Source: Escherichia phage 236Ecol005PP
Length of the DNA stretch: 64,000 nucleotides
Sequence record: PP434423.1
Strand: one strand, 5' to 3'
Shown piece after piece: positions 35,419 to 46,695 of this stretch. The notes beneath the pieces were generated by a model, which was not told the DNA's origin, ran no database searches, and saw only the letters and a program-made list of their open reading frames with translations. Each line of letters begins with the position of its first letter. Within the stretch, counting starts at the first letter, position 1. The translations under genes were made by a program, and so were the position numbers.

Positions 35419-35419
<1 letters not shown>
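35222..35419 (-). CDS. hypothetical protein (65 aa)
   Basis: ORF coupled to pseT. Confidence 0.4.
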
Positions 35420-36763
<1,344 letters not shown>

Positions 36764-39787: not shown

Positions 39788-39810
39788 ATAAAATGGGCCC
39801 TTGCGGCCCA
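39788..39810 (-). terminator. hairpin between nrdB and denA (possible partial terminator)
   Basis: TGGGCC-CTTGC-GGCCCA stem with short T-run on - strand. Confidence 0.35.
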
Positions 39811-39814
39811 CTCC

Positions 39815-40984
39815 TTAAAAATATTTTTTAAAACTCATCATAACTTTATCATCAACATCATTATCAATCTGTGCTACAAGGTAAGATGAAAGTTCTACTT
39901 CTTGTGGCGCGGATTGAACATTATCAGAATTAAGATATTCACGAATCCAAGGATATGGATGTTTAACCGGAGCATCAGTAATTGGGCATGGAAGACCACA
40001 CTGTTTCATACGAGATACAGTTAAGTAATCAATAAAGCTCCACATGCTATTTGTATTTAATCCAGGAACATCGCCATCTTTAAATAAATGAACTGCCCAA
40101 TCTTTTTCTTGGCGGTTAACTTCCATGAAAATATCAACTGCTTCTTGTTCACACTCTTGAGCAATTTTAACCCATTCATCGCCATCAGTACCGGATTGAA
40201 GTTGACGAATAATATATTGAGTGCCTTTAAGGTGAAGCTGCTCATCACGAGCAATGAACTTCATAATCTTGGCATTACCTTCCATGATTTCCATGTTTTT
40301 GTGGAAGTTAAATGTACAGGCGAAAGATACATAAAAACGAATAGCTTCCAATGCGTTGATTACATGAAGGCAAAGATAAAGAGATTTCATTAGTGCTCGT
40401 TTAGTGCATTCAACAACTTTGCCTAGCTCTTCTTTACGAAATCCTTCTGATAAAATTCCTTCATAATCTTCAACCGCATTCTGATATTCACGAGTCTTAA
40501 CTAGAACATCATCGTAATAGCGACCAATGGACTCGGCACGTTTCATGATAGCTTTATCTAATACAATCTCATCAAACACTTTTGACGGATCAGTATAAAG
40601 ATTTCGCATAATATGAGTGTATGAACGGCTGTGAATAGTTTCACTAAAAGTCCATGTAGCAACCCATGTATCAAGGCTTGGGTCTGAAATTAATGACATA
40701 AGTACAGCAGACGGTGCACGACCCTGAATGCTATCTAGAAGTGATTGATACTTCAGGTTATTAGTAAAAATATCTTGCTGATACTGAGGAAGCTTGTTAA
40801 ATTGTGCAGCATCCATCATCAAGTTTACTTCTTCCGGACGCCAGAAAAATGACAACTGCTTTTCGGTTAAATCTTCAAAAACTTTATGGCGTTGAATATC
40901 ATAACGCGCAATACCAAGACCTGAACCGAAGAACATAGGTTCTTTTAAAACATCAACTGGATTTGTATTAAAAACTGTAGACAT
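39815..40984 (-). CDS. nrdB: ribonucleotide reductase small (beta) subunit, uninterrupted
   Basis: 389-aa continuous ORF; no intron. Confidence 0.9.
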   Translation of the reverse strand: MSTVFNTNPVDVLKEPMFFGSGLGIARYDIQRHKVFEDLTEKQLSFFWRPEEVNLMMDAAQFNKLPQYQQDIFTNNLKYQSLLDSIQGRAPSAVLMSLISDPSLDTWVATWTFSETIHSRSYTHIMRNLYTDPSKVFDEIVLDKAIMKRAESIGRYYDDVLVKTREYQNAVEDYEGILSEGFRKEELGKVVECTKRALMKSLYLCLHVINALEAIRFYVSFACTFNFHKNMEIMEGNAKIMKFIARDEQLHLKGTQYIIRQLQSGTDGDEWVKIAQECEQEAVDIFMEVNRQEKDWAVHLFKDGDVPGLNTNSMWSFIDYLTVSRMKQCGLPCPITDAPVKHPYPWIREYLNSDNVQSAPQEVELSSYLVAQIDNDVDDKVMMSFKKYF

Positions 40985-41019
40985 ATTATTCTCGCTTATT
41001 ATAGGTTTAAATTATTTAA

Positions 41020-41811
41020 TCACATATTGTGTATAAGCACTTCAGTCTGAAATGATGCACCTTTCTTTTGCTTCCTATACATGGTTTCAAAATATTCAAT
41101 TTTGAAATTATTAGAAAGGGCCCAATCTTTTAAAATATAATTATTAATATCGTCTGATAGATTATTAGTGATAATAAATTTAGACTTCGATTGTTTAATT
41201 TTGTCTAATAATTCTAATTCATCCTTTTCTTCCCAGCCTGAATATTTAAATTTAGTAGAAAGATATGGCGGGTCAATGAATAAATTTTTGTTTTCAAAAT
41301 CCAAATCTCTGAATGATTTATTACTAAATGTAAATCTGTGTTGTCTATTTTTAAATTCAGAAAATTTATCCTGCTGAGACTTATTAAAAGAAGTTCTGGA
41401 ATACTTGGCTCTATTGGCGAAAGCCGCGTTATAATTCCCATTACTAGAAAATCGGATTAACGAACTGAATGAAAATAAATGTAGAACATAAAGATATAGT
41501 CCGTTTTTGGTTTTATCGTATTCTTTTGACAGATTATAAAAAGGTGCTGAATCTTTGTCATTCAAATTAAAGTCTTCAATAATTTGAACTATATCATTAA
41601 TTGAAGATGATTTCATCTTATTATACATATCTATAAGAGGAGTATTAATATCATTACATATAACATCTCTCTGACAATTCATAGAAAATCCAAGACCACC
41701 ACAAAAAGCATCCAAAACAGGCTTATCGTCAAAGCGGTTTGAAAATTGTCTAATAAATGGCATATACTTATGTTTTGCACCTGGATATGTTATGGCAGGT
41801 AGGTCTTTCAT
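41020..41811 (-). CDS. Dam-family N6-adenine DNA methyltransferase
   Basis: 263-aa ORF with N-terminal YPGAK, motif I DAFCGGLG and motif IV FIDPPY in the order typical of alpha-class Dam enzymes. Confidence 0.7.
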   Translation of the reverse strand: MKDLPAITYPGAKHKYMPFIRQFSNRFDDKPVLDAFCGGLGFSMNCQRDVICNDINTPLIDMYNKMKSSSINDIVQIIEDFNLNDKDSAPFYNLSKEYDKTKNGLYLYVLHLFSFSSLIRFSSNGNYNAAFANRAKYSRTSFNKSQQDKFSEFKNRQHRFTFSNKSFRDLDFENKNLFIDPPYLSTKFKYSGWEEKDELELLDKIKQSKSKFIITNNLSDDINNYILKDWALSNNFKIEYFETMYRKQKKGASFQTEVLIHNM

Positions 41812-41854
41812 TTTATTTCTCGTTGTTAGTGACTCGTCCGTGAGTCAAATTATA

Positions 41855-42844
41855 TCATAATTTACAGGATGAACAATCTTCAGCTTTTGGAGTTTCTATT
41901 TCGTAATCATCAGTACCGGAACCATCACGAGTATTATGATAATAGAAGTTTTTAATGCCATAATACCATCCATATAGCATGTCATCAATCATTATTGACA
42001 TTGGAACCTTTCCTTTTGGAAAAATCTGCGGGTCATAATATGTATTCGCTGAAGCTGATTGACATACCCATTTAAGCATAATAGCTACCTGCGTAAGATA
42101 AGGTTTATTACCTTTCTTAGCTAATTTCCACGTATAATCATATAGGTCTATGTTATGTTCAATATTGGGCACGACTTGATTAAAGGAACCCTCTTTTGAT
42201 TCTTTAACAGAGACTGGTCCACGTGGAGGCTCGATACCATTAGTACTGTTAGAAACTTGGGAAGATGACTCACATGGCATAAGTGCTGATAATGTGCTAT
42301 TACGGATGCCAAAGAGCTTAAGGTCTTCCCGCAGCGCCGACCAGTCACAAACGTATTTTGGAGCTGCGATTTGGTCAATCTTTTTATTGTACCAGTCGAT
42401 AGGTAATTCGCCTCGAGACCAACGAGTGTCTGAATAATATTCGCAAGGTCCTTTTTCTTTGGCGAGCTTAATGGATGCTTTAATGAGTCCATACTGTAAT
42501 CTCTCAAATAGTTCATGTGTTAAATCGTTAGCATCTTCATAAGAAGCAAAGTTACTTGCCAGCCAAGCTGCATAGTTAGTAACACCTACACCAAGATTTC
42601 GACGCTTTTTAGCTTTTTCTGCTTCAGGAACTGGATATCCTTGGTAATCCAAAAGATTATCAAGAGCACGAACTTGGACTTCTGCTAATTCATTAATTTT
42701 ATCTTGGTCTTGCCAATCGAAGTTATCCAACACAAATGCGCTAAGGGTACAAAGCCCCACTTCTCCCTTGTTTTCAATAACTTCTATTGTAGTATACTCA
42801 TCATCTTCGTAAAATTCATCTACAAATTCATAATCAATATTCAT
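41855..42844 (-). CDS. nrdA: ribonucleotide reductase large subunit, C-terminal fragment
   Basis: 329-aa ORF; acidic 22-aa leader then GEVGLCTLSAF, ...LSALMPCESSSQVSNSTNGIEPPRG..., C-terminal CSSCKL typical of class Ia NrdA. Confidence 0.85.
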   Translation of the reverse strand: MNIDYEFVDEFYEDDEYTTIEVIENKGEVGLCTLSAFVLDNFDWQDQDKINELAEVQVRALDNLLDYQGYPVPEAEKAKKRRNLGVGVTNYAAWLASNFASYEDANDLTHELFERLQYGLIKASIKLAKEKGPCEYYSDTRWSRGELPIDWYNKKIDQIAAPKYVCDWSALREDLKLFGIRNSTLSALMPCESSSQVSNSTNGIEPPRGPVSVKESKEGSFNQVVPNIEHNIDLYDYTWKLAKKGNKPYLTQVAIMLKWVCQSASANTYYDPQIFPKGKVPMSIMIDDMLYGWYYGIKNFYYHNTRDGSGTDDYEIETPKAEDCSSCKL

Positions 42845-43544
42845 TTAATTCTTCTACCTTTTTTCTAGTAATTCCTAAAGCTTTAGATGCTCGATGTATT
42901 GATTGATATTCTATACCGTTTATTTTTACAGCAATTAAGTTATGGGGTTTTAATCCCTTTGGATGAGGTTTACTGACGAAAACTAAATTATCAAGCTCTG
43001 AAATCTTATCCAATTTCTTACACTTAAATCCTTTGTGATGCGCCCGTTTACCTTTACAAACGGCTGACATCGCAGATGGATTTAAATTATGCTCTTTACA
43101 AAATTCGTTAAGACCTCGATGAATTTCCTCATGACCATCTGGAAATGTAAACACCCAAGACGTTTGAAGTCGAGATTTAACTTCTGGAGACATAGGAATA
43201 CCTTTGTTCCAGGCCGGTTTGCCTTTATTATTTTCAGATACAGAAATAGCCAATTTTCTTCTAAGCCACCCATGTCGTTTATTGGTGTTCTTTCGTTCAA
43301 TATTATCTTCAGAATAAACACACATCATATTAGCGGCAAATATCAATTTATGATTATCTGGATATATCTTTACTAATAATTGATGAGCTATGTAATGCTC
43401 TTCTGGTGTCAAATCTACCAGGTTTTCCTTTGTATCAGAACCACCAATACACAGAGGTATAATATGATGTGATTCGGTATAGCAATCTAATTTTCTGTTC
43501 TTAGCTTTAGAAATAAGGTTATTGTAAATTTTAGAATAATCCAT
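42834..43544 (-). CDS. HNH homing endonuclease inserted within nrdA
   Basis: 236-aa ORF with HNH motif (HHIIPLCIGGSDTKENLVDLTPEEHYIAH) and C-terminal HTH-like segment; AGAGGA SD upstream; 3' end overlaps start of nrdA C-fragment. Confidence 0.8.
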   Translation of the reverse strand: MDYSKIYNNLISKAKNRKLDCYTESHHIIPLCIGGSDTKENLVDLTPEEHYIAHQLLVKIYPDNHKLIFAANMMCVYSEDNIERKNTNKRHGWLRRKLAISVSENNKGKPAWNKGIPMSPEVKSRLQTSWVFTFPDGHEEIHRGLNEFCKEHNLNPSAMSAVCKGKRAHHKGFKCKKLDKISELDNLVFVSKPHPKGLKPHNLIAVKINGIEYQSIHRASKALGITRKKVEELNEY

Positions 43545-43589
43545 AACTTTTCCTCTTGTTATGGATTATTTATTAACGGTCTGTGTACT
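42834..43589 (-). mobile_element. free-standing homing-endonuclease insertion splitting nrdA
   Basis: HNH ORF plus 45-nt leader lies exactly between the two nrdA pieces; too little non-ORF sequence for a group I intron core. Confidence 0.65.
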
Positions 43590-45023
43590 TTATTTGCTTT
43601 GAATTATACCGCCAGGATTAGCTTCATAAAACTTAGCTACATCCGACTTCTTAATTTTAATTAAACGGGTTTGTTGACTATTCACATCATTTGTTGGAAT
43701 AGCAATTTCACAACACAAGTTACTCTGACGAATAGGTGCTTTTTCACGAATAAATGGAGTATAGTTATTCGTATTATCAATGAACTGCACATAAATCCTT
43801 GCTGTTCCTGAGCGTTCAGTCATTAGCAATTCAAACAGTTCACGGGCTTTAATACGCTTTTTACGAATATTAGGGTCTTTTTCTGCGGCTTCATATAATT
43901 CACGGAAACGGTCTTGGTCTTTAAAATAAGAATAATAAAGCTCACCACCCATTTCATGTGGACTGAACAAAGTAATGTAGTCGTTCTTTCCAAAACGTTC
44001 CATCATCAAATCATTCAGCTGGACGCCATAATCCATATGACGGATACGGTTTTCTTCTACACCTTTGTTATTTTTCAAAACGAGAAGATTTTCAACTTCC
44101 AAATGCCAAATAGGATAATAAGCAGTAGCAGCGCCGCCACGAATTCCACCCTGTGAGCATGATTTAACAGCAGTCTGAAAATGTTTCCAAAAAGGAATAA
44201 CACCAGTATGGCGTACTTCACCTGTACCAATCTTAGAACCTTCGGCACGAATCATACCAACGTTAATACCAATTCCAGCGCGTTTGGAGATATATTCAAC
44301 AATTGAAGCGGAAACCTTATTGATAGACTTCAGCGAATCACCTGCCTCAATAACAACACATGAACTAAACTGTCGAGTCGGAGTACGACAGCCAGCCATA
44401 ATAGGAGTTGGCAATGAAATCTGTCGAGTAGATACTGCTTCATAAAAACGAATAACGTGTTTTAGTCTATCAACAGGTTCATCTTGATGCAATGCCATTC
44501 CAATAGTCATAAATGCAAACTGCGGAGTTTCATAAATTTGACCAGTGGTTTTATCTTTAACTAGATATTTTTCTTTTAATTGCATCGCCCCGGAATAAGT
44601 AAATTCCATATCCCGCTCATGCTTAATTTTTGATTCTAAAAATGTAATTTCTTCTGCTGAATATTTTGACAGCAGTTCAGGGTCATATTTACCTTCATTT
44701 ACACAGTAAGAAATATGGTCAATAAATGAACGTGGTTCATATTGTCCGTAAACATGCTTACGAAGAGCAAACATTAAACAGCGTGCAGCTACATATTGAT
44801 AATCAGGCTCTTCAACTGAAATAGAATTCGCAGCAGCCTTAATTACAATGGTTTGAATGTCATCAGTGGTCATTCCATCACGGAGATATGATTTAATATT
44901 TTCATATAATTCATAAGGATCTACAGATGTTCCTTCAGCTGCCCAAGATAAAACTTTAATAATTTTTTGCGGGTCAAAGCTCTGAGAAACACCACTACTT
45001 TTGATAACATTAATTAATTGCAT
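43590..45023 (-). CDS. nrdA: ribonucleotide reductase large subunit, N-terminal fragment
   Basis: 477-aa ORF with ATP-cone-like N-terminus and active-site motif SNLCCEIAIPT, then a 29-aa Lys-rich non-homologous tail and stop. Confidence 0.85.
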   Translation of the reverse strand: MQLINVIKSSGVSQSFDPQKIIKVLSWAAEGTSVDPYELYENIKSYLRDGMTTDDIQTIVIKAAANSISVEEPDYQYVAARCLMFALRKHVYGQYEPRSFIDHISYCVNEGKYDPELLSKYSAEEITFLESKIKHERDMEFTYSGAMQLKEKYLVKDKTTGQIYETPQFAFMTIGMALHQDEPVDRLKHVIRFYEAVSTRQISLPTPIMAGCRTPTRQFSSCVVIEAGDSLKSINKVSASIVEYISKRAGIGINVGMIRAEGSKIGTGEVRHTGVIPFWKHFQTAVKSCSQGGIRGGAATAYYPIWHLEVENLLVLKNNKGVEENRIRHMDYGVQLNDLMMERFGKNDYITLFSPHEMGGELYYSYFKDQDRFRELYEAAEKDPNIRKKRIKARELFELLMTERSGTARIYVQFIDNTNNYTPFIREKAPIRQSNLCCEIAIPTNDVNSQQTRLIKIKKSDVAKFYEANPGGIIQSK

Positions 45024-45340
45024 AAGTCCTCAACTTGAAAATCGTCTTTAAACAATCGGTTAACTATATGAGCTATTATATCACCATGACACGGCTTTGG
45101 TTTACATGTGCATCCTAGCCTCATTCCACGTAAAGGCTCTAAATGTGCTTTAGTTATTTCTCCGGATTTAATTCGACGTATAAAATCTTTTTTGAATAAT
45201 TCAATGGCAGCCTCCCGGCTGCCAGCATCTTTACCGACGTAATTTCCCCAAAATGTACCGCGGTGAATATTAACATCAAAGTCGGATTTATATTTATTCA
45301 CTACCTGGCATAGACGGCCCGCGCGGTAATAGTTCGTCAT
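45014..45340 (-). CDS. hypothetical Cys-rich protein (108 aa)
   Basis: ORF containing [12 protein letters not shown] segment. Confidence 0.45.
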
Positions 45341-45892: not shown

Positions 45893-46146
45893 CATTATGT
45901 TCAGATAAGGTCGTTAATCTTATCCCGGAATTATATCCAGCTGCATGTCACCATACAGATCAGACTATATCTCCATCTTGATGAAGCAAGATGTCTATCG
46001 TTTCGAGTCACTTGACCCTACTCCCCAAAGGGATAGTCGTTAGGCATTTAGTTCAAAAGAACATTTAGCACGGGATTGTCTACTAGAGAGGTTCCCCGTT
46101 TAGATAGATTACAAGTATAAGTCACCTTATACTCAGGCCTCAATTA
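45893..46146 (-). other. group I self-splicing intron in td, ORF-less (about 254 nt)
   Basis: Exon 1 ends ...GTT TTC TTG GGT then TAATTGAGGCCTGAGTATAAGGTGACTTATACTTG...; intron ends ...CTGAACATAATG; both ends match the T4 td intron as recalled; no ORF inside. Confidence 0.8.
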
Positions 46147-46695
46147 ACCCAAGAAAACATCTACACTTCTTTGGTACCATTGTAAATCAAGATAACCATT
46201 ACGCACATTAAACTGATAGAACATATGACAGGGCGGTAATGCCATTTGATTGATTTCAGCTGGATTCCATGCTGAAACGATTTGACGTCGATCAGTTGGT
46301 AATTTTTTAATACGATCAATAGTTTCAACTAATTGATCCACACCACCGAAATCACGCCATTGTTTACCGTATATAGGACCAAGTTCACCACTATGATATC
46401 CTAGGTCTTTAGCCTGGTTTTCATAGTTATCGTCCCAAATAGTTTTACCTTGAATAAGACTACCATGAGTGCGAAGACGTAAATCATTAACATTGGTAGA
46501 ACCGGAAATAAACCATAGAAGCTCAGCAATGCAAGCTTTCCAAGCGAGCTTCTTAGTCGTTACTGCAGGAAAACCTTTAGTTAAATCCCAACGTAATTTA
46601 GTACCGAACAAAGCAATTGTTCCTGTGCCTGTTCGGTCATCGGTTTCATAGCCATTTTCAAAAATGTCTTTAATTAAATCTTGGTATTGTTTCAT
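46147..46695 (-). CDS. td: thymidylate synthase, exon 1
   Basis: 183 codons ending ...PPCHMFYQF...QRSVDVFLG (TS active-site Cys region). Confidence 0.85.

What the first reader, a model, noticed from the sequence alone, without database searches (positions are those of the whole stretch)
41020..41811. Dam-family N6-adenine methyltransferase in the nrdB-nrdA interval
The 263-aa ORF has YPGAK, FCGGLG (AdoMet motif I) and DPPY (motif IV) in alpha-class order, so it is very likely an adenine MTase. As I recall, T4 carries mobE and small ORFs at this locus and its dam gene elsewhere, so this looks like an extra or relocated MTase next to a homing-endonuclease insertion. It could protect the phage from a cognate nuclease (host restriction or the neighbouring HNH) or be cargo of the same mobile insertion.
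Basis: partly seen in the sequence, partly recalled or inferred. Interest (0 to 1): 0.6.

Follow-up and report, generated by a model that had tools for sequence, protein, structure and literature searches.

The report
Second Dam-type methylase in T4-like phage
The ORF is a real, probably active DNA adenine methyltransferase: a rare, old second lineage of the phage T4 Dam type that occupies the nrdA-nrdB slot where T4 has the mobE endonuclease. It is not T4's ordinary dam gene and not cargo of the nearby HNH endonuclease, and its target sequence is still unknown.

Summary
Window 41020-41811 (- strand) is an intact 263-aa ORF between nrdB and the C-terminal piece of a split nrdA. It matches Pfam D12 N6-adenine MTase well above threshold. 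It carries YPGAK, FCGGLG and DPPY in alpha-class order, and its model superposes on T4 Dam (TM 0.82-0.88).

It is not the ordinary dam gene. It is about 34% identical to T4 Dam and lies about 45 kb from the dam locus. Phage BGP carries both genes.

It belongs to a small, isolated clade: one 50%-identity cluster among 1.84 billion representatives. The clade was found in 8 GenBank phages of at least 3 named genera and in 7 metagenome contigs, always in this same slot.

Its DNA divergence tracks that of nrdA and nrdB in every lineage, and dN/dS is 0.07-0.18. It is therefore an old, selected resident lost from most phages, not a recent insertion.

The MTase and the MobE-like HNH that splits nrdA occur independently elsewhere. 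The window was the only place found with both.

Most EcoDam/T4Dam GATC-contact positions are kept, but the recognition hairpin is 6 residues longer than in T4 Dam. GATC is the likeliest target and is unproven.

This is a new member of a known kind, of modest interest.

The parts
41020..41811 (-). 263-aa orphan D12-class (T4Dam-like) N6-adenine DNA methyltransferase gene
   Evidence: ORF. Pfam PF02086 84.6 bits. T4 Dam is the best PDB hit, E 6e-37. AF2 model pLDDT 87.7, TM 0.82-0.88 to T4 Dam. dN/dS 0.07-0.18 between alleles.
41812..41826 (-). 15-nt leader of the MTase with a purine-rich, RBS-like GAGAAA upstream of the ATG
   Evidence: Read directly from the sequence. This is the right-hand end of the segment that is absent from the empty-site phage FL34.
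41830..41847 (-). 6-bp stem / 6-nt loop (TGACTC...GAGTCA) just after the nrdA stop. It belongs to the nrdA 3' flank, not to the MTase cassette.
   Evidence: The identical sequence is present in FL34, which has no MTase. It is not scored as an intrinsic terminator.
40985..41019 (-). 35-bp spacer between the MTase stop and the nrdB start, carrying the nrdB ribosome-binding region
   Evidence: Sequence. It is conserved among MTase carriers (T4_ev240, BGP, fDHCT2) and differs from the FL34 spacer.
40979..41826 (.). 848-bp variable segment relative to the empty nrdA-nrdB site of phage FL34, where the nrdA-nrdB spacer is 51 bp. The left junction falls in nrdB codons 2-3, where Ser2 is TCT here and AGC in FL34.
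   Evidence: Side-by-side sequences. FL34 annotation.
39815..40984 (-). nrdB (RNR small subunit), intron-less here; the downstream neighbour
   Evidence: 97.5% nt identity to FL34 nrdB.
41855..42844 (-). C-terminal piece of nrdA (329 aa); the upstream neighbour
   Evidence: PF02867 profile positions 219-523.
42834..43544 (-). MobE-family HNH endonuclease gene that splits nrdA. It is an independent module, not linked to the MTase.
   Evidence: PF01844 (below its cut-off) and PF22083 (above its cut-off). 46% identity to T4 MobE over the N-terminal 127 aa. No group I intron detected here.
43590..45023 (-). N-terminal piece of nrdA (477 aa)
   Evidence: ATP-cone, Ribonuc_red_lgN, and PF02867 profile positions 1-221.

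Best explanation
The ORF encodes an orphan alpha-class, D12-family, T4Dam-like enzyme that transfers a methyl group from S-adenosylmethionine to the N6 of adenine in double-stranded phage DNA. No nuclease partner is present. It lies in the same orientation as nrdA and nrdB, between the conserved nrdA 3' end and the nrdB ribosome-binding site. It is therefore most likely co-transcribed with the nucleotide-reductase genes at early or middle times, when phage DNA is being made (inferred). Its target is most likely GATC or a close variant (inferred). The likely benefit is protection of phage DNA from host nucleases that are blocked by adenine methylation, as is assumed for T4 Dam (inferred, not shown). 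In evolutionary terms it is an old occupant of the nrdA-nrdB slot of T4-type phages. It has co-diverged with the nrd genes, has been lost from most lineages, and is replaced in others by homing-endonuclease genes such as mobE. It is occasionally moved between phages by homologous recombination of the flanks, as in phage BGP.
For: Enzyme identity:
- Pfam D12 84.6 bits against a cut-off of 22.
- T4 Dam aligns end to end at E 6e-37.
- AF2 model pLDDT 87.7 and pTM 0.87, with all T4Dam chains as top fold hits, TM 0.82-0.88, followed by EcoDam and DpnM.
- Cofactor and catalytic positions equivalent to T4Dam Y7, K11, F32, G35, N49, D50, D171, P172, P173, Y174 and Y181 are identical in all four clade representatives.

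Selection:
- dN/dS is 0.07-0.18 with dS 0.3-1.3 between alleles.

Orphan status:
- The neighbours are nrdA and nrdB in every one of 16 loci.

Old resident:
- MTase nt identity to the window equals flank identity in each lineage.
- The figures are 74% against 71-76% (L013/L014), 75% against 70-72% (Marfavirus PhiKpNIH-6), 78-79% against 79-82% (fDHCT2, CF-SP2) and 97-99% against 91-97% (Tequatrovirus).

Recombinational transfer:
- In BGP the MTase (81%) and the adjoining nrdB 5' half (85%) are foreign within 96-97% flanks. This patch lies next to an nrdB homing endonuclease.
- Homing in T4 co-converts up to about 2 kb of flanking DNA (PMC2790892).

Target:
- In the HMMER alignments, F115, S116, L118, R120 and Y137 align with EcoDam Y119, N120, L122, R124 and Y138.
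- PMC4417163 describes those EcoDam residues as the intercalator and the base contacts for GATC. R124 is the key discriminator of the C:G pair.
- K13 aligns with T4Dam K11.
Against: - No methylation data exist for any carrier. The paper on phages NR1 and BGP reports only cytosine modifications.
- The protein scores below NCBIfam's Dam-family cut-off (93.6 against 114.85 bits).
- The recognition hairpin deviates from the subfamily. It has Ala for the Pro that contacts the third base pair, Ser for a near-invariant Asn (T4Dam N118), and Ala for a near-invariant Gly (G128).
- The hairpin loop is 6 residues longer than in T4 Dam, a length seen in none of 81 other homologues. It is modelled with pLDDT below 50 at residues 135-137.
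- BGP keeps both this gene and ordinary dam, which would be redundant if both enzymes methylate GATC.
- Co-transcription and the anti-restriction role are inference only. My pattern search found no T4 middle-promoter (MotA-box) match.
Confidence: 0.65

Rival explanations
1. It has the same fold and chemistry but a new sequence specificity that is not GATC. The allele groups may also differ from one another in specificity, diversifying under pressure from host restriction systems.
For: - The hairpin is the least conserved part of the protein between allele groups: 50% identity over aa 111-130 against 80% overall.
- The type B allele (BGP, fDHCT2, CF-SP2) has Lys in place of the key Arg (R120).
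- The hairpin carries a unique 6-residue extension and unusual Ser and Ala at near-invariant positions.
- BGP carries both this gene and ordinary dam.
- The score is below the Dam-family cut-off.
Against: - Five of six EcoDam base-contact or intercalating positions are kept or T4Dam-like.
- Ala or Ser in place of the Pro is common in the T4Dam-like subfamily, in 22 of 81 homologues, including the representative of T4 Dam's own 50% cluster.
- dN/dS in the N-terminal half is still 0.13-0.26, so there is no sign of positive selection.
Confidence: 0.3
2. It is simply the phage's ordinary dam gene (the T4 Dam orthologue), moved to a new locus in this lineage.
For: - T4 Dam's cluster is the nearest relative outside the clade.
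- Seven of 8 carriers have no other Dam-family gene.
- The ordinary dam slot is empty in the four carriers inspected.
Against: - Identity to T4 Dam is only about 34%, whereas T4 Dam is 42-53% identical to many other homologues.
- In the NJ tree the clade sits on its own long stem and not beside T4 Dam.
- BGP has both genes.
- Ordinary dam is missing from roughly 60% of T4-type records in any case. Its absence in carriers is therefore not significant: my binomial estimate is about 0.1, and the carriers are not independent.
Confidence: 0.05
3. It is cargo of, or functionally coupled to, the neighbouring HNH homing endonuclease. It would either be carried in the same mobile insertion or would protect the phage's own DNA from that nuclease.
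For: - The gene lies about 1.0-1.8 kb from the HNH gene, within the roughly 2 kb co-conversion range reported for T4 homing (PMC2790892). Passive hitch-hiking is therefore possible.
- The BGP patch shows that such transfer happens beside another endonuclease.
Against: - None of the 15 other carriers has the HNH or a split nrdA.
- Thirty or more phage records with the HNH-split nrdA lack the MTase, and FL34 has an empty 51-bp spacer.
- The MTase co-diverges with the nrd genes across genera.
Confidence: 0.05
4. It is a decayed or non-DNA methyltransferase, either inactive or acting on RNA.
For: - No experimental data exist.
- RlmJ-type rRNA m6A enzymes appear far down the fold-hit list.
Against: - All cofactor and catalytic motif residues are intact.
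- Purifying selection is strong.
- The ORF is intact in all 16 loci.
- The DNA-recognition hairpin and the intercalating Phe are retained.
Confidence: 0.04

Closest known systems
Phage T4 Dam (M.EcoT4Dam; PDB 1Q0S, 1YFJ, 1YFL), an orphan GATC N6-adenine MTase
   Same: - Same Pfam family and same alpha-class motif order.
- Same length class (263 against 259 aa), with an end-to-end alignment.
- Best structural match, TM 0.82-0.88.
- Orphan enzyme of a T4-type phage.
- The intercalating Phe, Ser112, Arg116 and Lys11 equivalents are kept.
   Different: - Only about 34% identical.
- Different locus: the nrdA-nrdB slot and not the interval between genes 56 and 61.
- Pro126 is replaced by Ala, Gly128 by Ala and Asn118 by Ser.
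- The hairpin is 6 residues longer.
- It coexists with true dam in phage BGP.
- Specificity is untested.
E. coli Dam (PDB 2G1P, 4RTJ)
   Same: - Same fold.
- The R124, L122, Y119 and Y138 equivalents align with R120, L118, F115 and Y137.
- The length of the C-terminal hairpin arm is closer to EcoDam than to T4 Dam: 3 extra residues against 6.
   Different: - 16-18% identity in the structural alignment.
- The sequence match is partial, covering aa 32-185, at E about 6e-6.
- It fails the PRK10904 equivalog model (35.6 against 441 bits).
T4 mobE, and other occupants of the nrdA-nrdB intergenic slot
   Same: - It occupies exactly the slot that holds the free-standing HNH gene mobE in T4. IME537 has another ORF in that slot whose product is 47% identical over 105 N-terminal residues to the window's MobE-family HNH.
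- It has the same orientation, embedded in the nrd transcription unit.
   Different: - It is not an endonuclease and has no known mobility of its own.
- Unlike a homing element it co-diverges with the flanking genes.

Membership tests
D12-class N6-adenine DNA methyltransferases (Pfam PF02086) | Profile match above the curated gathering score over the whole domain | tested here: met
   84.6 bits against a cut-off of 22; profile positions 1-251 of 253.
D12-class N6-adenine DNA methyltransferases (Pfam PF02086) | AdoMet motif I (FxGxG) and catalytic motif IV (DPPY) in alpha-class order, with the recognition region between them | tested here: met
   FCGGLG at aa 36-41 and DPPY at aa 180-183, with the hairpin at aa 113-143 between them. 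These residues are invariant across the clade.
D12-class N6-adenine DNA methyltransferases (Pfam PF02086) | Dam fold: a Rossmann-like catalytic domain plus a helical DNA-binding domain with a beta-hairpin | tested here: met
   AF2 model pLDDT 87.7. Foldseek TM 0.82-0.88 to T4Dam and 0.71-0.80 to EcoDam and DpnM.
Dam family in the strict sense (NCBIfam TIGR00571; GATC-specific) | Score above the curated family cut-off | tested here: not met
   93.6 bits against a cut-off of 114.85. For the EcoDam equivalog NF008152 the score is 35.6 against 441.
Dam family in the strict sense (NCBIfam TIGR00571; GATC-specific) | Residues that read GATC (EcoDam K9, Y119, L122, R124, P134, Y138) | tested here: inconclusive
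   K13, F115, L118, R120 and Y137 are kept, while P134 is replaced by A130. The loop is extended, and the type B allele has Lys for the Arg.
Dam family in the strict sense (NCBIfam TIGR00571; GATC-specific) | Methylation of the adenine in GATC | not testable with these tools
   No adenine-methylation data were found for any carrier.
Ordinary T-even dam gene (T4 Dam orthologues) | Location between gene 56 (dCTPase) and gene 61 (primase) | tested here: not met
   The gene lies between nrdA and nrdB. T4 and BGP have dam at the 56-61 locus.
Ordinary T-even dam gene (T4 Dam orthologues) | Close sequence relationship to T4 Dam, and only one such gene per genome | tested here: not met
   About 34% identity. 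It is not sister to T4 Dam in the NJ tree. BGP carries both genes.
Restriction-modification system methyltransferase | An adjacent cognate restriction endonuclease gene | tested here: not met
   The neighbours are nrdA and nrdB in all 16 loci examined.
Cargo of a homing-endonuclease insertion | Co-occurrence with the endonuclease, and divergence uncoupled from the flanking genes | tested here: not met
   The MTase and the HNH occur separately everywhere else. MTase divergence equals flank divergence in the five lineage groups compared.

The most novel reading that the evidence does not exclude
The nrdA-nrdB methyltransferases are a distinct, ancient lineage specific to T4-type phages, whose extended recognition hairpin reads a site other than GATC. 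Their allele groups (type A with Arg, type B with Lys at the key guanine contact) would have different specificities. Under this reading the slot is a small hot spot of epigenetic diversification against host restriction, maintained alongside or in place of ordinary Dam.
Probability: 0.25. Interest if true: 0.5.

Novelty: new member of a known kind. Interest (0 to 1): 0.3.

Why it matters
Dam-type orphan methylases are among the commonest anti-restriction and epigenetic genes of phages, and T4 Dam is their structural model. This work shows that T4-type phages carry a second, deeply diverged Dam lineage. It has been kept at one fixed position inside the ribonucleotide-reductase operon across several genera, and it evolves as slowly as the essential neighbouring genes.

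Three consequences follow:
- The gene is under real selection and deserves a specificity assay.
- The nrdA-nrdB slot, known for homing endonucleases such as mobE, has a non-mobile alternative occupant.
- Annotation pipelines that call it 'dam' or 'hypothetical protein' conflate it with T4 Dam.

For phage therapy and work on host defence, it may change which restriction systems these phages escape. The practical importance is modest unless the specificity turns out to be new.

Tried and rejected
- A scan of IMG/VR viral contigs with peptide patterns from the protein found no relative.
- The one paper that covers two carriers (NR1 and BGP; PMC13390438) reports only cytosine modifications. It contains no occurrence of adenine, deoxyadenosine or m6dA, so there is no experimental clue to the target.
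- A regular-expression search for T4 middle promoters (MotA box plus -10) and late promoters around the gene found nothing. The terminator scan also found none. The sigma-70-like hits (14 against 7.9 +/- 2.6 expected) are what an AT-rich stretch gives, and I did not use them.
- The NJ tree of 85 homologues is star-like and does not resolve the origin of the clade. I therefore make no claim of duplication as against horizontal acquisition.
- I considered mutual exclusion between this gene and ordinary dam. I rejected it as unproven, because dam is absent from most T4-type records anyway and four of the carriers are nearly identical.
- I considered that the Pro-to-Ala change in the hairpin marks a specificity change. 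I rejected it as a marker, because Ala, Ser or Thr occur there in 30 of 81 homologues.

Full report
**What is at the coordinates**

The window is a T4-type (Tequatrovirus-like) phage segment. Window 41020-41811 on the - strand is an intact 263-aa ORF with an ATG start. It lies 35 bp upstream of nrdB (39815-40984, -) and 43 bp downstream of the stop of an nrdA C-terminal piece (41855-42844, -).

The translation carries YPGAK (aa 9-13), FCGGLG (aa 36-41) and DPPY (aa 180-183), in that order. The gene is AT-rich, at 28.8% GC against 36.3% for the window.

**Is it a methyltransferase?**

- Pfam PF02086 (D12 class N6-adenine MTase) matches at 84.6 bits, against a cut-off of 22, over the whole profile.
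- PHROG 56 'DNA methyltransferase' matches at E 1e-35.
- Against all PDB sequences the best hit is phage T4 Dam itself, at E 6e-37. The alignment runs from residue 4 to 252 of the query and 2 to 251 of T4 Dam. E. coli Dam and DpnM follow at E about 1e-5.
- An AlphaFold2 model built on 21 homologues has mean pLDDT 87.7 and pTM 0.87.
- Foldseek against the PDB returns all T4Dam chains first (TM 0.82-0.88), then EcoDam and DpnM.
- In an 85-sequence alignment, the positions equivalent to T4Dam Y7, K11, F32, G35, N49, D50, D171, P172, P173, Y174 and Y181 are identical in all four clade representatives.
- Between alleles from different phages, dN/dS is 0.07-0.18 with dS 0.3-1.3.

I conclude with high confidence that this is a functional AdoMet-dependent N6-adenine DNA methyltransferase.

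**It is not the ordinary dam gene**

- It is about 34% identical to T4 Dam.
- T4 Dam is encoded between gene 56 (dCTPase) and gene 61 (primase), at about 17 kb on the T4 map.
- In T4 the nrdA-nrdB interval holds the HNH gene mobE.
- The protein falls below NCBIfam's cut-off for the Dam family, at 93.6 against 114.85 bits.
- Phage vB_Eco_BGP carries both a canonical dam at the 56-61 locus (also noted in PMC13390438) and an 80%-identical copy of this gene between nrdA and nrdB.
- A T4Dam tblastn query finds no other Dam-type sequence in the 64-kb window.
- The ordinary dam locus lies outside the window, so I cannot say whether this phage has dam as well.

**How rare it is, and where it sits**

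In 50,697 phage records, tblastn finds only eight with more than 60% identity:

| Phage | Identity | Genus |
|---|---|---|
| T4_ev240 | 100% | Tequatrovirus |
| EP02SG, ECO07P2, NR1 | 99% | ECO07P2 and NR1 Tequatrovirus; EP02SG not looked up |
| BGP | 80% | Tequatrovirus |
| Salmonella phage CF-SP2 | 79.5% | Gelderlandvirus |
| fDHCT2 | 78% | unclassified |
| Klebsiella phage PhiKpNIH-6 | 75.5% | Marfavirus |

The next hit drops to 40% (Alcaligenes phage Afa-NA1), and then to the roughly 34% of ordinary Dam genes.

In a 5.8-billion-protein collection there are four 90% clusters. In 1.84 billion 50%-identity representatives the clade is a single cluster (P0003). The next hit, at E 2e-28, is the representative of T4 Dam's own cluster. 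IMG/VR gave nothing.

In every locus I could read, the gene sits between an intact nrdA and nrdB in the same orientation. These loci are seven of the eight GenBank records (EP02SG's locus was not fetched) and seven metagenome contigs.

Some records annotate it as 'DNA adenine methylase', 'dam' or 'putative methylase', and others as 'hypothetical protein'. I found no paper that discusses it.

**Old resident, not a recent insertion**

The nucleotide identity of the MTase to the window copy matches that of the flanking essential genes in every lineage:

| Lineage | MTase | Flanking nrdA / nrdB |
|---|---|---|
| Metagenome contigs L013, L014 | 74% | 71-76% |
| PhiKpNIH-6 | 75% | 70-72% |
| fDHCT2, CF-SP2 | 78-79% | 79-82% |
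| Tequatroviruses | 97-99% | 91-97% |

This is what long co-inheritance with the nrd operon predicts. The patchy distribution is then explained by loss or replacement.

The exception is informative. In BGP the MTase (81%) and the adjoining 5' half of nrdB (85%) form a foreign patch within 96-97% flanks. The patch lies next to a homing endonuclease inside nrdB. Homing in T4 co-converts up to about 2 kb of flanking DNA (PMC2790892). The gene can therefore be carried passively between phages.

Phage FL34 shows the empty site. Its nrdA and nrdB are separated by 51 bp. Homology with the window resumes at 41827, just before a stem-loop at 41830-47 that both phages share. On the other side it is lost at 40979, inside nrdB codons 2-3.

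**Relation to the neighbouring HNH**

The HNH ORF (42834-43544, -) splits nrdA into 477-aa and 329-aa pieces. It is a MobE-family enzyme, 46% identical to T4 MobE over the N-terminal catalytic part. No group I intron was detected there.

More than 30 phage records have this split nrdA, and none of them has the MTase. All carriers whose nrdA was read or annotated (14 loci; ECO07P2 and NR1 from their record annotation) have an intact one, and none shows the HNH. No record in the phage collection covers more than 85% of window 39800-45100.

The two features are therefore independent modules brought together by recombination. The ideas of 'cargo of the same insertion' and 'protection against the neighbouring HNH' are not supported. 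Because the MTase lies about 1.0-1.8 kb from the HNH gene, passive hitch-hiking during homing remains possible.

**Is it a replacement for dam?**

Seven of the eight carriers have only this one Dam-family gene in the whole genome. This follows from 'places in record'. The second place in PhiKpNIH-6 is the C-terminal remainder of the gene across the record start.

In T4_ev240, NR1, ECO07P2 and fDHCT2 the 56-61 interval contains no dam (tblastn).

However, only about 40% of T4-type records have any Dam homologue (454 records against 973). Four of the carriers are also nearly identical to one another. The pattern is therefore not statistically meaningful. I describe the gene as an alternative Dam-type gene and not as a proven substitute.

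**Likely target**

PMC4417163 describes how EcoDam reads its site:
- R124 reads the guanine of the fourth base pair and is the main discriminator.
- L122 and P134 read the third pair.
- Y119 intercalates.
- N120 makes a hydrogen bond.
- K9 and Y138 read the first pair.

In the HMMER alignments, these residues align with R120, L118, A130, F115, S116 and Y137 of the window protein. K13 aligns with T4Dam K11. So five of six contact or intercalating positions are kept or are T4Dam-like.

The Pro-to-Ala change is not diagnostic, because 30 of 81 homologues have Ser, Ala or Thr at that position.

Against a simple GATC call:
- The hairpin has Ser and Ala at two near-invariant positions (T4Dam N118 and G128).
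- Its loop is 6 residues longer than in T4 Dam, a length seen in none of the other 81 homologues. It is poorly modelled at residues 135-137.
- The hairpin is the most divergent stretch between allele groups, at 50% identity over aa 111-130. The type B allele has Lys for R120.
- BGP keeps both enzymes.

I put GATC or a near variant at about 0.55-0.6 and a different site at about 0.3.

**Mechanism and role**

Shown:
- the fold;
- intact cofactor and catalytic residues;
- purifying selection;
- orphan status;
- the fixed slot.

Inferred:
- co-transcription with nrdA and nrdB, from the shared orientation and the position between the conserved nrdA 3' end and the nrdB ribosome-binding site;
- methylation of phage DNA during replication;
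- protection from adenine-methylation-sensitive host nucleases.

No promoter or terminator evidence of my own supports or contradicts the transcription inference.

**Verdict**

The finding is real and the family assignment is right. The gene is a second, old Dam-type lineage in the mobE slot. It is neither a relocated dam nor endonuclease cargo. It is a new member of a known kind, of modest interest (0.3). The interest would rise if the specificity proves new.

Noticed in passing
window 42834-45023 (with 41855-42844): nrdA is split into a 477-aa N-terminal ORF and a 329-aa C-terminal ORF by a free-standing MobE-family HNH gene. The HNH gene overlaps the start of the C-terminal piece by 11 bp. 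Rfam finds no group I intron here. The arrangement resembles the 'fragmented' nrdA of Aeromonas phage Aeh1 (PMC3045599, abstract only). More than 30 GenBank T4-type phages share it.
   Followed up: partly
window 45896-46143 (Rfam hit 45941-46156, - strand): The thymidylate synthase gene td is interrupted by a short group I intron of about 250 nt that has no ORF (Intron_gpI, 72.7 bits). Relatives carry the I-TevI endonuclease gene at this position.
   Followed up: partly
window 35760-36042 (inside pseT, 35419-36468, - strand): There is a perfect 141-bp tandem duplication (2.0 copies, 100% match) inside the polynucleotide kinase/phosphatase gene. It gives a 349-aa product in place of about 301 aa and duplicates the segment containing the phosphatase DVDGT motif. 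It could be a real recent duplication or an assembly artefact.
   Followed up: partly
whole window 1-64000: GATC is by far the most depleted 4-bp palindrome: 71 observed against 221 expected from a Markov model, O/E 0.32. The next most depleted are CTAG at 0.65 and CATG at 0.66. There are no GATC sites inside the MTase gene itself.
   Followed up: partly
L003 1731-4826 and L011 7404-8743 (phage vB_Eco_BGP): BGP carries a foreign patch (the nrdB 5' half at 85% and the MTase at 81%, within 96-97% flanks) next to an nrdB homing endonuclease. Its canonical dam is preceded by a 561-bp ORF that PMC13390438 calls restriction-enzyme-like. The BGP record also annotates the nrdA-nrdB MTase with a late start (744 bp) as a hypothetical protein.
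   Followed up: partly
window 40979-40984 against L009 2680-2685: The junction between the MTase-bearing segment and the empty-site sequence falls in the first codons of nrdB. There the same Met-Ser is encoded by ATG TCT in the window and ATG AGC in FL34. T4 MobE is reported to nick the 5' region of nrdB (PMC2790892), so these synonymous differences might relate to endonuclease target immunity.
   Followed up: no
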